A stretch of DNA of 64,000 nucleotides, from NCBI GenBank assembly GCA_964016885.1, contig OZ024745.1:14756001-14820000 (forward strand), read 5' to 3'. Positions within the stretch are counted from its first letter, which is position 1. Each line of letters begins with the position of its first letter. Position numbers and translations under genes: made by a program. Origin of the DNA: Eledone cirrhosa. Its lineage: Eukaryota. The notes beneath the pieces are model-generated. The model had not been told where the DNA came from. It worked only from the letters and a program-made list of their open reading frames with translations, and did no database searches. This document shows positions 5,738 through 58,258 of this stretch, in pieces.

Positions 5738-6780
5738 TATACATTATGTCAACACCACAATATGACATACACACACACACAATATATATATATATATATT
5801 CTCTTCATCTTAACATGCTAACCATACTCCCACACACATAACACCCATACACACACATAACAACCCCCACACCTGCAACTCCTTCCCCATTTCTACTAAT
5901 AGAACCACTTTCCTACACACATATATATATATATATATATACACACACAAATATATATTCTCTCCATCTTAACATACTCGCACACACACAACTCCCTCCC
6001 CCATCTCTACTAATAGAATCATCTTCCAATACACACATACACACACACACACACACACACACACACACACACACACACACACATACACACACACAAGCAC
6101 ACAAATAAACATACATATCTTCACTTCAATAGAAAATCTGAACTCTGACACCCCGGCGAGCTGGACATATTCACTGAACCAGAACAAATCTCCCAATCCC
6201 TTTTCTCTTGACCACTATCTCTCCATTGTCATAACATTCATTATAAAGACTACAGAATAGTTTTCCAAATAAGGGCGCAAAAATGTAATGAAAACTTGTT
6301 CACGTGACAGCCAAATTTCATTTATAACCAACCAAAAAAAAGCCTTCGTGAGCCTCCTTTTTTCAAGTAAAAAGAAATTCAAACACTCATATATGAAAAA
6401 ACAACCTGTGACAACCACCCCTCTCTTATTTGAAGAACTATTGTAACGCGAACTGGCGCGAAATTTATTATAATTATTGACAAACCAATCAAATTACTTC
6501 TCGAAAAACCTGGCATTTCGAGCCACTTTTTCCATATAAAACAAGTAACATTCAGAGACCAACCAGATGTGAGAAAAACCACAGACCCTCCATCTCAACT
6601 CACCTTTTGAAAAGCAGAAGAACTGCGAAACCGGTAAAGGAACCAAATAAATATATATATTTAAAAAAAAAATAAGACTCCAGTTGCATTTTCGATTTCA
6701 TCTCTTTTTCTTTATACTTTCACTCGTGTAGGACACCTCGGTTATTTTTTATTTTGTAAAAAAAACCTCACTTTCTAATA
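5738..6780 (+). mobile_element. 3' UTR / pseudo-LTR of the Penelope-like element
   Basis: Follows the ORF, has an internal ~150-bp duplication with CA/TA repeats, and ends in (TA)n. Parts of 6140-6780 recur at 48703-49332 (minus) and 42733-42930 (plus, partial). Confidence 0.8.
6603..6640 (+). ncRNA. Type I hammerhead ribozyme, U3-A8 core variant
   Basis: CCTT TTGAAAA GCAG aagaa CTGC GAAAC CG GTA AAGG: 4-bp stem I, 4-bp stem II, palindromic minimal stem III (ACCGGT). Confidence 0.75.
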
Positions 6781-7734
6781 TATATATTATATATATATTT
6801 GAATAATGATTTTATATTAGAAGAATTTATTTAATTTAAAAAATATTTATAAATTTTAAATTGACGCTTGGTAGATTTGAATTATATAGAATGATTCTAA
6901 GATATTATAGGCACGTTTATTTCTCGAGCGCCATTCACACTATCACTTTTTCTCTGTTGTACAACAATATGCTTTTAGATGTGTGGTAGAATAGAAAATG
7001 TTCTTCTTCAAATTGTGGAATATTATGTCAATACATACAACAATTATTTGTTGCTTCAATTATTTTGCATAACTCTTCGTATCAAGTATATACGTGTAGA
7101 AATGAAATACCTTAGTGTACATGTATGCATGCGTTTGCGTGTATATGTGCGCGTTCGTGTTAACGTGTACACGTTTCTTCGTGTGAGCGTATACACGCAT
7201 TAATCATAAGATATGTGGGACAGAGGGAAAAATAATTTGGAATTGGTTTGGTGAGAATGTAATACGATATGCGGAACATAAATTATTCATGTCTGTCACT
7301 AAATATTCAGAAACACATTAACAGTACTACGAATGGTATTTGGAAAAAATTAAATAATTTATCGATCATGGTTATTCTAGTTGTACCTCAGCCCTCAACT
7401 CAACGGCAATAAATTGCAATAAACAACAAAAGATATATAGATCACTTTCCATCAGCATTTTCAACACATCATATTGCCATTTCTCTCTGCATATTCAATT
7501 GCTAATACAATATCTCAGACGCATCTAGTTCTCTGTGTAATGCGCAACCCCACCAGGCTATTATTTCTGTCTTGGCACCAGGAATATGTCGTTCTACTTC
7601 AACCCCTCCACAATAAATTGATCGCTACTCACTCTTCCTTAGAATAGTATCAACACTTTCCTCTCTAGTCATCATATTCTTGCAGATTTTCAATTTACAG
7701 ATACCTGGTGATGTCCAAAGAAAGCATTAAACAA

Positions 7735-54000: not shown

Positions 54001-56613
54001 TGGTTATTACAGTTCTTGTTTTGCAAAGAATAGGATAGAATGATTTATTTAATTTTCTGTTTTTTTCCTTAGTAAATTTAGGCTACATGTACATCAAAAG
54101 CAAATGGATGTTAATGACATTTAATTCATTTAGTCCATATCTGTAGGCGAATTCATGTCTACGTTATTTATGTGTCATCGGCACAGAATTATAGACTGTT
54201 GTAGTTAGTGTTTAGTTTCAAGACTTTTGCTTTCAGTAAAGTAGAATGTGGCGACGTACAAGGAATAATGGAGGAGAATAAAATAAGGACAAGAAATAAG
54301 GAAGAGACGTATTTCATTCGGGATTCATGTTCTGTATTTCTTTAGGGGAATAACAAAAACAAAAAAGCCAAATCGTTTCTTTTTCTGCTTTACTTTCCCT
54401 GTTTCTCTGTAAATCAAAAGAGCTACAGATTTAATAATCCTTGCATAGGACCATAGTTATACTTACACTTCACCAATGATTATGAAAGATATAAGCTGTG
54501 AGAATGATCCTAACGACTATGAACACGATACATACAGTTAGTCTGTAGAAAAGGTCATAATAAGGCTGAAACACATTGCCAGAAAATGGATGTAATATTA
54601 GTCACTGATGGCTAATGTTGTTTTCTAAGGTTCTTTGGCGTAAACATATTAACATAAACTTAAGAATTAAACTCGCCAAAGATCGTTAAATAAAGAGACC
54701 TTGAATAGAAGAGTGTTTTAGTTTAATTAAAGTATTGTGTAATAAGTAGAAAACAATGCTGTCGGAAAATTATATACACATGACAATAACAAGGATATAT
54801 GAGTTAGTCTTGTTGGTATTTGGTGCAATATCTATTTTAAAATGTGTTGTGGGAACGAAAGAGAGAGAGAGAGTGAGGATAGAGAAAGAGAGACTATATC
54901 TTCTTTATTTTGGCATTAACAACAGTCTGGAATTGAATGAAGTCCAGTGTCTATTATAGCCATTCCTTATAATCAACATGTGTTATTATGATAAACCAAA
55001 TTCTATCTCAAACGTATGGCAATCACTGGGCAAGTACACCTTGTCATCAGAAGAATTAGTTTTAAAGTTTTTTGGCCTTAATAACAGTGATTCTAAATAC
55101 AATGAAAATATGAGAAGGCATACTCAACAACCATCGCTACTCTAATACCAAGAGTTTATATAACACAAAAACAACTCTAGCATCCGAATCTCTACACGTG
55201 TGTTCTTTTGTTTAATACTACGTACACTAAATCAGAATGGCAGAGCCTCGCCTGTCAATACCTGTTGTTCTCTTAACATCGTTGTAAAGGTATAGTTAAT
55301 TCGAAATACTATGACTAAAATATTAATAGTCTATTGATATGTTAACATTGTAAGGTATCCCAATAGATCCTTAATCGATGTTGTTCAATGTATAAACTTA
55401 TCTCGTGCAAGCTGTTTGCCCATATGTTTGACGTCAACGAATTTTAACATGCACGTGTATCATGTTCATTAAATGCTTTTCTATTTTGCCATTGTATGTA
55501 CACTAAAATATTCGAAACTAAATTTCATGGTTATGTGCTTTCAGCAGAATGCTCACATAAAATGTATATGGCGAACAGCCTTTTCAATCAAATATTTTGT
55601 TTGTGACTCCCTGTACATCTTAATATATGTTTCATATGAAACGTCTTTCATACTTAAATTATCCTTCGCTAAGATAATAAAGAGCATATATTGTACATAT
55701 CGTTATCATTCTCAAATAGGAAGGTGTCTACTAAGGTTTCACGGAGTTATTAATTAAAAGTAATAAGCAAGTTTTGATTATTTATTTTTAATATTTCCCT
55801 TTTACAACGTGCTGAGATAGTGCTGCTGTTGTCTTTTGAATTATCACCAACCATAAATCTCTGTTATATAGCCGTTTAAATTAGGTTTGGCAAGAAGCTT
55901 AATTTAAAGTGAAATATCTTGGAGATATCTTGCCTTACATACCTCCATGAAATAATATTTCTATTACAGTAAATTTATTAAGATTTACTAAGATTATATT
56001 AATAAAAAAATAAACTGATTTATTAATTTAAAATACTCGTGAAAATAGGTGGCGGTGTATAAATTTAGTGAATATACTTGAATATTGATGGATAGTCACA
56101 TTAAGACTTAAAGCTCCCTTTGATCTCCAAAATGCAAACACATTTATGAGATACTTAAAATCTTAAATCCTAATGGAATATTTTTTGTTAGTTCTTATTT
56201 TTTTTTCAAAATACCATGATACCTCCAATATATTGTATAAACATTACCAAGAAGCAACAGGTCTAATCGTAACATAATATTAACACAAATTTATGTAAAA
56301 TATACATATGATCTTTAATGAGAAATCTTGAAATTACCTCTTCGCATCCTAATATTTTGTTAACTTCATCATATATTTTACTTTAACTATTTCATAATTG
56401 CAACAGCGTTAAAAAATCGATCATTTTATTTGCTTCTATAATCCACACTTTAATTTTCCAAGATGAAAAAATATACATGTAAATTTCATTTTGAATTATG
56501 CATCACGCTATACATACATACATACATATATACAGACACGTATAGATATATACATGCATGCATACAAACATACATACATACATACATATATATATATATA
56601 TATATATATATAT

Positions 56614-58258
56614 ACAATATATTTAGAAACACACAGATACATGCGGACACACACATATATACATGAATGCATCCGCACCCAACTGTGAGTTAAGGGTGCC
56701 AACTTCACCGATGTTGCTCAATGAATGACTGGGACAGACCAATTCAGTTGAACTAGACTGAACCAGTATCAGAGTTAAAAATACATTATGAAGAGAGAAG
56801 AAACATTTAGATATAATTAGTAATAAAATGTATCATACCTAAACTGCTCCTAAATTCCTCGACTACGTAGTTTCGTGGCATAAACAAAAACAATATATCA
56901 TAAAGATATAGAGTCCCTGCGAGGTCTGCCGACTTATCAAGAGGATACCTCATTTTACTAGTCTCAAGAACGCGTCTACACGACGTGAGAAAGAATCCCA
57001 AAAGGCGGAGGGGGAGATAGTCACGCGATATAACGGTCGAGAAACAGAGCTAAGCCTCTTATAACCCCGAAGAAAATACCACGGAGGCGGAGGGGGTATT
57101 TATATCGAGGCCGTAGAAGAGGTGGTGAAGAAGGCGAGAAGTATGAGTAATGGAAGCTTTCCAGCTGTCCCCACACTTCAAAGATTGCTCGACCAGAGGG
57201 AGTTATTAACAATATATTTAGAAACACACAGATACATGCGGACACACACATATATACATGAATGCATCCGCACCCAACTGTGAGTTAAGGGTGCCAACTT
57301 CACCGATGTTGCTCAATGAATGACTGGGACAGACCAATTCAGTTGAACTAGACTGAACCAGTATCAGAGTTAAAAATACATTATGAAGAGAGAAGAAACA
57401 TTTAGATATAATTAGTAATAAAATGTATCATACCTAAACTGCTCCTAAATTCCTCGACTACGTAGTTTCGTGGCATAAACAAAAACAATATATCATAAAG
57501 ATATAGAGTCCCTGCGAGGTCTGCCGACTTATCAAGAGGATACCTCATTTTACTAGTCTCAAGAACGCGTCTACACGACGTGAGAAAGAATCCCAAAAGG
57601 CGGAGGGGGAGATAGTCACGCGATATAACGGTCGAGAAACAGAGCTAAGCCTCTTATAACCCCGAAGAAAATACCACGGAGGCGGAGGGGGTATTTATAT
57701 CGAGGCCGTAGAAGAGGTGGTGAAGAAGGCGAGAAGTATGAGTAATGGAAGCTTTCCAGCTGTCCCCACACTTCAAAGATTGCTCGACCAGAGGGAGTTA
57801 TTAACAATATATTTAGAAACACACAGATACATGCGGACACACACATATATACATGAATGCATCCGCACCCAACTGTGAGTTAAGGGTGCCAACCTCACCG
57901 ATGTTGCTCAATGAATGACTGGGACAGACCAATTCAGTTGAACTAGACTGAACCAGTATCAGAGTTAAAAATACATTATGAAGAGAGAAGAAACATTTAG
58001 ATATAATTAGTAATAAAATGTATCATACCTAAACTGCTCCTAAATTCCTCGACTACGTAGTTTCGTGGCATAAACAAAAACAATATATCATAAAGATATA
58101 GAGTCCCTGCGAGTTCTGCCGACTTATCAAGAGGATACCTCATTTTACTAGTCTCAAGAACGCGTCTACACGACGTGAGAAAGAATCCCAAAAGGCGGAG
58201 GGGGAGATAGTCACGCGATATAACGGTCGAGAAACAGAGCTAAGCCTCTTATAACCCC
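56614..58258 (-). repeat. 595-bp tandem array (~2.8 copies), one variant hammerhead per unit
   Basis: Unit starts at 56614, 57209 and 57804. Near-identical (two substitutions seen in copy 3). (TA)n at both ends. Confidence 0.95.
56855..56946 (-). ncRNA. Type I hammerhead, U3-A8 core with enlarged stem II (also 57450-57541, 58045-58136)
   Basis: TCCTC TTGATAA GT(c)GGCA [~46 nt] TGCCAC GAAAC TACGTA GTC GAGGA, with palindromic stem III ACTACGTAGT. Confidence 0.7.

What the first reader, a model, noticed from the sequence alone, without database searches (positions are those of the whole stretch)
6603..58136. U3-A8 compensatory hammerhead core recurs in three distinct families
Seen: TTGAAAA at 6607, TTGATAA at 37735 and TTGATAA on the minus strand at 56934-56940, each in an otherwise complete HHR with different stems. 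Known: C3 and G8 form a tertiary Watson-Crick pair, and U3-A8 is an uncommon but functional compensatory variant. Inference: the double change implies selection for catalysis, and this genome may hold many ribozymes invisible to standard motif searches.
Basis: partly seen in the sequence, partly recalled or inferred. Interest (0 to 1): 0.8.

Follow-up and report, generated by a model that had tools for sequence, protein, structure and literature searches.

The report
U3-A8 hammerheads in Penelope-like retroelements
Three repeat families in this likely octopus genome carry hammerhead ribozyme motifs with an already published U3-A8 core swap; they likely self-cleave as dimers to trim jumping-gene RNA, but related elements spread to over a thousand copies with mismatched or altered cores, so cleavage is likely helpful rather than essential.

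Summary
Observation confirmed. All three sites are complete type I hammerheads (HHR) with U3-A8: 5 motifs in the window, against 1 in 100 shuffles. F1 (6603-6640) sits in the 3' end of a Neptune-like Penelope element (PLE; 6,288 copies). F2 (37731-37773) is a ~320-bp retrozyme-like repeat whose sister families have C3-G8. F3 (three 595-bp tandem units; 5,924 copies) resembles the 3' end of a Hydra-type PLE. Palindromic stem III predicts dimeric cleavage. A 1.4-Mb sample gave 67 C3-G8, 19 U3-A8 and 3 unpaired cores, or about 40,000 U3-A8 motifs genome-wide. U3-A8 in PLE hammerheads is already published (PMC4209133, PMC3088659). The selection inference holds only in part. Across families the pair covaries. 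But one Hydra PLE lineage went U3-A8, then mismatched C3-A8 (at least 1,331 copies), then back to U3-A8, and F1's sister family reached 3,811 copies with A13C. Within-family mismatch counts equal the neutral rate. No activity or expression was shown. Verdict: new members of a known kind; the natural broken-core lineages are the useful part.

The parts
6603..6640 (+). F1 type I minimal hammerhead, U3 at 6607, A8 at 6612, palindromic stem III, predicted cleavage after A17 at 6636; U3-A17 predicted to extend stem I
   Evidence: dimer fold; 6,288 genome matches
5048..6798 (+). 5'-truncated Neptune-like PLE carrying F1: end of RT thumb and GIY-YIG region (5054-5737, in-frame stop at 5651-5653), then 3' UTR/pLTR
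   Evidence: GIY-YIG PF01541 E 6e-5; 99.3% to intact natural ORF in L207; RVT_1 + GIY-YIG in L207
37731..37773 (+). F2 type I hammerhead, U3 at 37735, A8 at 37740, C17 at 37769; this copy lacks 2 nt of the family's stem III palindrome
   Evidence: Rfam HH9 24.2 bits, below gathering; 244 exact matches
37343..37912 (.). F2 insertion: inverted partial copy plus direct ~320-bp unit between TA microsatellites; inverted HHR copy at -37540 has a deletion
   Evidence: inverted arms 37371-37526 / 37757-37912
56856..56945 (-). F3 hammerhead, unit 3: U3 56940, A8 56935, C17 56861, long helix II extension, 10-nt stem III palindrome
57451..57540 (-). F3 hammerhead, unit 2 (U3 57535)
58046..58135 (-). F3 hammerhead, unit 1 (U3 58130)
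56614..58258 (-). F3 non-autonomous tandem element: 595-bp units, about 2.8 copies, between TA repeats
   Evidence: spacing 595 in 37 of 40 adjacent pairs among fetched loci; 5,924 matches
34024..37215 (.). 310-bp tandem array (4.2 inverted + 6.2 direct units) with 10 canonical C3-G8 hammerheads; homologous sister of F2
   Evidence: 68% identity to F2 over 331 columns
25192..26374 (-). Second PLE fragment (GIY-YIG region) with a C3-G8 minimal hammerhead at 25234-25192; comparison case
2953..3676 (.). 3' halves (stem II 3' arm, G12-A15, stem III, stem I 3' arm) of the Hydra-type PLE family F5, the lineage with the C3-A8 subfamily; further halves near 26445-26740 and 37214-37312; positions 3 and 8 are not present in these window copies

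Best explanation
These are type I hammerhead motifs with a U3-A8 core, carried in the 3' repeat of a Penelope-like retrotransposon (F1) and in two non-autonomous tandem repeats (F2, F3), and they likely self-cleave weakly as dimers to cut element RNA into unit lengths, a step that is likely helpful but not required for the autonomous elements. Shown: topology, copy numbers, PLE linkage and cross-family covariation. Predicted: two copies in tandem repeats or pLTRs pair through palindromic stem III and cleave after H17. Inferred: F2 and F3 monomers could circularise and be re-inserted at (TA)n by PLE RT/endonuclease. Inferred: U3-A8 arose at least twice (F2 lineage; F1 and Hydra PLE lineages). 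Inferred: selection keeps the 3-8 pair on average but is weak, because an autonomous lineage passed through C3-A8 for several subfamilies before returning to U3-A8.
For: Full topologies far above shuffles. F1 follows a GIY-YIG region 99.3% identical to an intact RT+EN ORF. F3 is 75-78% identical to sequence downstream of a Hydra-type EN in L138, and 62-64% to L271; both keep U3-A8, and L271 has changed but still pairing stems II and III. F2 is 76% identical to C3-G8 family L275 and 68% to the C3-G8 310-bp array. On that 6-row alignment the 3-8 pair is UA 4 / CG 2, and 3 of 4 stem II pairs change on both sides with 100% of cells paired (related rows, so not a probability). Co-folding two copies gives the dimeric hammerhead for F1, F3 and the 310 array, and adjacent F3 units pair stem III across units (0.66 and 0.81, against 0.00005 within a unit). 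Census of 1.4 Mb: 67 C3-G8, 19 U3-A8, 3 other. In a diverged F3 relative from another run (X6 record 21, 13 other letters) the 12 listed changes within its span all fall in the helix II extension. F5 EN tree of 27 insertions: old U3, then a C3 grade, then young U3; 3 changes against 9.2 shuffled; U3 as one clade rejected, p-AU 3e-45. Literature: U3-A8 natural and active in vitro (PMC3088659); PLE min-HHRs cleave weakly and as dimers (PMC4209133); HHR mutants do not affect insertion of an Anolis PLE in vitro (PMC11167929).
Against: No cleavage assay. In one deep mutational scan of a type III HHR only the G3-C8 swap rescued, and all other single and double core mutants had low activity, so U3-A8 need not be active in every context (PMC9901934). 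Monomer folds with flanks favour the HHR stems poorly for F1 and F3 (stem I probability 0.12 and 0.00). F1 has A17, and the dimer fold pairs U3 with A17, like the inhibitory C3-G17 pair (PMC3884650). Amplified C3-A8 (1,331) and A13C (3,811) families fit a vestigial motif equally well. The F5 root rests on terminal branch lengths (median 0.035 old U3, 0.024 C3, 0.010 young U3), not on an outgroup. The sample came from contigs C1-C7 only.
Confidence: 0.62

Rival explanations
1. Strict selection for catalysis: every amplified family needs an active HHR, so the natural C3-A8 core (perhaps as a protonated C-A wobble) and even the A13C core still cleave in their own context.
For: C3-A8 copies keep the stems: 24 of 44 C3 rows against 31 of 49 U3 rows pass both stem checks (rows include inverted halves). 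The lineage returned to U3-A8. Paired cores dominate clusters, 20 of 22.
Against: Single mutants at 3 or 8 abolish cleavage in a PLE HHR (C3G, G8C), and core single mutants are low in a full scan. The one C3-A8 copy folded (L216) loses stem II (P 0.01, against 0.62 in U3 copy L220). F1's sister family has A13C and only a 3-bp A-U stem I.
Confidence: 0.13
2. The motifs are vestigial or hitch-hiking: U3-A8 was fixed long ago in a few master elements and is copied passively; none of the three needs to cleave today.
For: Broken-core families amplify. F1 has a predicted U3-A17 trap. Naiad PLEs thrive without canonical HHRs, and the authors raise the idea that HHRs parasitise PLEs (PMC8557442).
Against: Core and stems are kept or covary across 62-78% identical relatives while neighbouring sequence drifts. 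Position 7 varies freely among F5 subfamilies (A, C, G, T) while G8 never amplified: 27 copies genome-wide, 8 of them C3-G8. The F5 lineage reverted to U3.
Confidence: 0.13
3. The fold is kept for a non-catalytic job, such as RNA dimerisation through palindromic stem III or recognition by the PLE protein, and cleavage is incidental.
For: Stems and palindromes are intact in C3-A8 copies. Many short insertions break and invert inside or beside the motif. Unprocessed RNA was the dominant insertion substrate for the Anolis PLE.
Against: A structural role alone does not explain conservation of U4-G5-A6, A9 and G12-A15 and of Watson-Crick 3-8 pairing across 20 of 22 clusters; the scan requires those core letters, which biases this point.
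Confidence: 0.12

Closest known systems
PLE minimal hammerheads with U3-A8 (Cercyon elements, Schistosoma mansoni; Cervera and De la Pena 2014, PMC4209133)
   Same: Type I HHR in PLE terminal repeats, U3-A8 core missed by the first descriptor, palindromic stem III, inverted pairs 100-700 bp apart, mostly truncated copies, predicted dimers.
   Different: Here in a likely octopod, in at least two PLE clades and in tandem non-autonomous repeats; about 40,000 estimated against about 1,300; no extra base after A9 in F1-F3; F3 and F5 have a 50-nt helix II extension.
Non-LTR retrozymes of animals (Cervera and De la Pena 2020, PMC7229834; Li et al. preprint 10.64898/2026.07.22.740005)
   Same: Tandem low-GC non-coding repeats with a type I HHR per unit; PLE pLTR origin (F3 resembles a PLE 3' end).
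   Different: U3-A8 core; the F3 unit (595 bp) exceeds the reported 170-400 nt; circular RNA not shown here.
Natural U3-A8 hammerheads (Perreault et al. 2011, PMC3088659)
   Same: Same covariation of the 3-8 pair.
   Different: A few examples in that survey; here high-copy animal repeats.
Neptune/Nematis and Hydra clades of EN+ PLEs (Craig et al. 2021, PMC8557442)
   Same: F1 host ORF has RT then C-terminal GIY-YIG, DKG and a CX4CxxC linker. F5 has RWR, DKT and CxCX5C motifs like Hydra. Insertions lie in (TA)n.
   Different: That paper used canonical descriptors and CUGANGA strings and says canonical HHRs are universal in Hydra; F5 carries U3-A8 or C3-A8 cores that such strings would miss.

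Membership tests
Type I hammerhead ribozyme | Core N3-U4-G5-A6-N7-N8-A9 / G12-A13-A14-A15.1 / U16.1-H17 with Watson-Crick 3-8 pair | tested here: met
   F1, F2 and F3 x3
Type I hammerhead ribozyme | Three helices with stem I open, supported by covariation | tested here: met
   dimer folds
Type I hammerhead ribozyme | Rfam gathering score | tested here: not met
   F2 24.2 bits and 310 array 23 bits against 52 for HH9; no hit for F1 or F3 at E<=1
Type I hammerhead ribozyme | Loop I / loop II tertiary contact | not tested
   not analysed; PLE min-HHRs often lack a defined loop 1
Type I hammerhead ribozyme | Self-cleavage after H17 | not testable with these tools
   needs an in vitro assay
PLE-associated dimeric min-HHR | Palindromic short stem III allowing a dimer fold | tested here: met
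   F1 and F3 dimer MFE; F2 palindrome in family copies but damaged in the window copy
EN+ Penelope-like element (F1 host) | Single ORF with RT and C-terminal GIY-YIG | tested here: met
   L207 ORF, RVT_1 E 5e-7 and GIY-YIG E 8e-5; window copy is truncated
EN+ Penelope-like element (F1 host) | pLTR with direct and inverted 5'-truncated copies, microsatellite targets | tested here: met
Neptune clade (F1 host) | CX2-5CxxC linker; placement in RT phylogeny with reference elements | tested here: inconclusive
   linker motif present (definition) but shared with Nematis; no reference tree built
Hydra clade (F5) | RWK-like motif, DKT, CxCX5C linker | tested here: met
   motifs read in L220/L221 ORFs against section 11 of PMC8557442; no reference tree
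Non-LTR retrozyme (F2, F3) | Non-coding tandem units, each with a type I HHR, GC under 50% | tested here: met
   F3 595-bp spacing, GC 0.42; F2 319-321-bp spacing in 4 pairs; no ORF of 100 aa inside
Non-LTR retrozyme (F2, F3) | Expressed as linear and circular monomer RNA | not testable with these tools
   needs RNA reads or northern blot

The most novel reading that the evidence does not exclude
This genome preserves natural experiments on whether PLE hammerheads matter. An autonomous Hydra-type master lineage replicated through at least five nested subfamily nodes with an unpaired C3-A8 core and then restored U3-A8, and a Neptune-like family amplified with A13C, while the non-autonomous tandem retrozymes sampled keep paired cores. 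Cleavage would then be dispensable for autonomous PLEs but needed for their retrozyme parasites, and compensatory 3-8 swaps would arise by drift through amplified, catalytically dead intermediates.
Probability: 0.3. Interest if true: 0.62.

Novelty: new member of a known kind. Interest (0 to 1): 0.38.

Why it matters
The U3-A8 core itself is published, including in PLEs, so the headline is ordinary. Two things remain useful. First, about a fifth of intact hammerhead motifs in this genome (19 of 89 sampled) would escape CUGANGA descriptors, which affects HHR censuses in molluscs and statements about which PLE clades have HHRs. Second, the function of PLE hammerheads is still open (PMC8557442, PMC11167929), and matched natural subfamilies with U3-A8, C3-A8, A13C and C3-G8 cores make it directly testable.

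Tried and rejected
Rfam scan: no gathering-level HHR hit; miRNA-like hits are inverted repeats and microsatellites. First strict scan missed F3 because loop II was capped at 45 nt; fixed. Within-family mismatch counts were rejected as a selection test because positions 3, 8 and 7 vary alike. The idea that F3 is the pLTR of the EN fragment in L063 was rejected: a TA tract separates them. F5 trees on flank-containing 3' UTR windows were noisy or kept only 10 of 89 rows. The EN tree with distant Hydra rows held duplicates and rooted on a long branch; it was redone after dropping 7 duplicates and 2 second halves, leaving 27 rows. A cross-clade EN protein tree (15 rows, p-AU 0.007 against one U3-A8 clade) is not used as evidence, because the HHR-EN pairing of L063, L072 and L280 is unverified or wrong. 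Sequencing runs: no RNA holder listed; only contigs could be laid. No earlier scan notes were found. Przybilski and Hammann 2007 and Lunse et al. 2017 could not be read, so kinetic values for 3-8 exchanges from them are recalled at best and not used. Supplement file 1 of PMC4209133 was not searchable and may hold further U3-A8 examples.
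Full report
Setting. The window is G000:C5:14756001-14820000 in a 3.0-Gb animal genome, rich in TA microsatellites. The closest named relative of the F1 retroelement protein is an Octopus bimaculoides protein at 74% identity, so the host is likely an octopod (inference).

Observation. A structure-aware scan finds 18 type I hammerheads (HHR) in the window at score >=24. Five have U3-A8: F1 at 6603-6640, F2 at 37731-37773, and F3 three times on the minus strand (U3 at 58130, 57535, 56940). Thirteen have C3-G8: ten in a 310-bp array at 34024-37215, and single ones at -18122, -25230 and -63159. 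One hundred local shuffles gave 8 hits in all, 1 of them U3-A8. F3 is complete although G12 lies 66 nt after U3; the insert folds as a helix II extension. Rfam gives only sub-threshold HH9 hits, for F2 (24.2 bits) and for the canonical array (23 bits; gathering 52), and none for F1 or F3.

F1. It lies about 870 nt downstream of a GIY-YIG region (PF01541, E 6e-5) that is 99.3% identical to an intact natural ORF in L207 with RVT_1 and GIY-YIG. That ORF has DKG and a CX4CxxC linker, as described for Neptune/Nematis PLEs. The genome holds 6,288 exact-pattern copies, often as close inverted pairs. Of these, 17 lack U3, 8 lack A8, and none has C3-G8. The free position 7 is changed in 13. Within-family counts therefore reflect neutral decay and say nothing about selection.

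F2. It is a ~320-bp unit (244 exact matches for one subfamily; 98 of the first 100 listed are U3-A8). It is homologous over its length to the neighbouring 310-bp C3-G8 array (68%) and closer to another C3-G8 family in L275 and L181 (76% to L275). On a 6-row alignment the 3-8 pair is UA 4 and CG 2, and 3 of 4 stem II pairs change on both sides (rows are related, and only these pairs were counted because the 3' side of one row was misaligned). Parsimony puts the switch to U3-A8 on the F2 branch (inference).

F3. It is a young 595-bp tandem element with 5'-truncated and inverted copies in TA tracts; 5,924 matches, 99 of the first 100 U3-A8. It is 75-78% identical to sequence downstream of a Hydra-type endonuclease in L138, and 62-64% to L271; both keep U3-A8, and L271 has changed but pairing stems. 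In contigs of four public runs under three organism labels no change was listed at positions 3 or 8, and a diverged relative's listed changes fall in the helix II extension.

Fold. Co-folding two copies yields the dimeric hammerhead for F1, F3 and the 310 array, and adjacent F3 units pair stem III across units (0.66 and 0.81, against 0.00005 within a unit). Monomers with flanks fold the F1 and F3 stems poorly. In the F1 dimer U3 pairs with A17, the analogue of the inhibitory C3-G17 pair (PMC3884650 passages). These are predictions.

Census. In 140 evenly spaced 10-kb regions from contigs C1-C7 (1.4 Mb) the scan found 67 C3-G8, 19 U3-A8, 1 U3-G8, 1 C3-C8 and 1 G3-A8; shuffles averaged 0 for the two paired classes and 1.0 for G3-A8. 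The hits form 22 clusters: 14 C3-G8, 6 U3-A8 and 2 unpaired singletons. Extrapolation gives about 40,700 U3-A8 motifs (Poisson 24,500-63,500) and 143,000 C3-G8, ignoring clustering.

Evidence against strict selection. A further family, F5, whose 3' halves occur in the window, belongs by motif to the Hydra clade; its protein is 22% identical to F1's. Of 5,060 exact-pattern copies, 1,331 have C3, and all of the first 100 listed keep A8. Their stems are largely intact: 24 of 44 C3 rows and 31 of 49 U3 rows pass both stem checks. G8 never amplified: 27 copies, 8 of them C3-G8. An endonuclease tree of 27 de-duplicated insertions is a ladder from old U3-A8 through a C3-A8 grade to young U3-A8 (3 changes against 9.2 shuffled; one U3 clade rejected, p-AU 3e-45). 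It is rooted only by terminal branch length (medians 0.035, 0.024, 0.010). Separately, a sister family of F1 has 3,811 copies, 99 of the first 100 with A13C, all with U3-A8.

Literature. Natural U3-A8 covariation was first noted in PMC3088659 (passages). PMC4209133 (parts 1-2 of 4; supplement searched except file 1) reports U3-A8 in S. mansoni PLE min-HHRs, about 1,300 hits with a changed descriptor, and weak dimeric cleavage. PMC7229834 (passages) and preprint 10.64898/2026.07.22.740005 (part 1 of 5 and passages) define tandem retrozymes and tie them to PLEs. PMC11167929 (passages) shows that single 3 or 8 mutants kill a PLE HHR yet leave insertion unaffected in vitro. PMC9901934 (passages) found only the G3-C8 swap rescued in one type III HHR, which argues that U3-A8 activity depends on context. 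PMC8557442 (passages and section 11) calls PLE HHR function unclear. PMC6962438 (passages) counts 235 Rfam hammerheads in giant squid. PMC7151607, PMC2920678 and PMC2837043 were seen as passages. Searches listed no octopod U3-A8 census and no amplified C3-A8 subfamily; the library lacks most subscription papers, among them two directly relevant ones.

Mechanism and verdict. Most likely these are dimer-dependent, weakly active hammerheads that trim PLE and retrozyme transcripts. The 3-8 pair is kept on average and was swapped at least twice, but it is dispensable for long stretches in autonomous PLEs (confidence 0.62). Rivals are strict selection with active C3-A8 (0.13), a vestigial motif (0.13) and a non-catalytic structural role (0.12). 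Nothing here shows activity or expression. These are new members of a known kind; interest 0.38, carried mainly by the natural broken-core lineages.

Noticed in passing
window 34024-37215: 310-bp tandem array of near-identical units (99-100%), 4.2 inverted plus 6.2 direct, each with a canonical C3-G8 dimeric HHR: a very young retrozyme-like insertion, with the older F2 insertion beside it.
   Followed up: partly
L121:1326-1445, L047, L089, L124; 3,811 genome matches: Sister family of F1 with U3-A8 but A13C and a weak A-U stem I; a PLE endonuclease lies upstream in L121.
   Followed up: partly
L167, L178-L206, L213-L217, L222-L226: Hydra-type PLE subfamilies with an unpaired C3-A8 core and intact stems, nested between older and younger U3-A8 subfamilies.
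   Followed up: yes
window 13871-14012: Short inverted repeat holding another C3-G8 HHR-like family (related to L085 and L207:641-707); the window copy has weak stems and did not pass the scan.
   Followed up: no
window 18064-18130 (-) and 63128-63163 (-): Further C3-G8 hammerheads; the first matches the commonest cluster in the census, the second is a low-scoring minimal motif.
   Followed up: no
window 42732-42965 (+) and 48689-49331 (-): Two decayed F1 copies with damaged cores.
   Followed up: partly
L018:1230-1275, L087, L262: Three more U3-A8 families; the one in L018 follows a Hydra-type endonuclease and has A17 like F1.
   Followed up: no
window 30867-32257 (+): Fragment of a non-LTR retrotransposon ORF with a zf-RVT hit (E 5e-5); close relatives are common in the sampled loci.
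   Followed up: no
window 2953-3676, 26445-26740, 37214-37312: Very short F5 insertions whose 5' truncation and inversion points fall inside the helix II region of the HHR, leaving only its 3' half.
   Followed up: partly
runs X4 and X6: F3 sequence is also held by runs labelled as two other organisms (shares 0.59 and 0.53), nearly identical over the unit in X4; relatives, shared samples or transfer were not distinguished.
   Followed up: no
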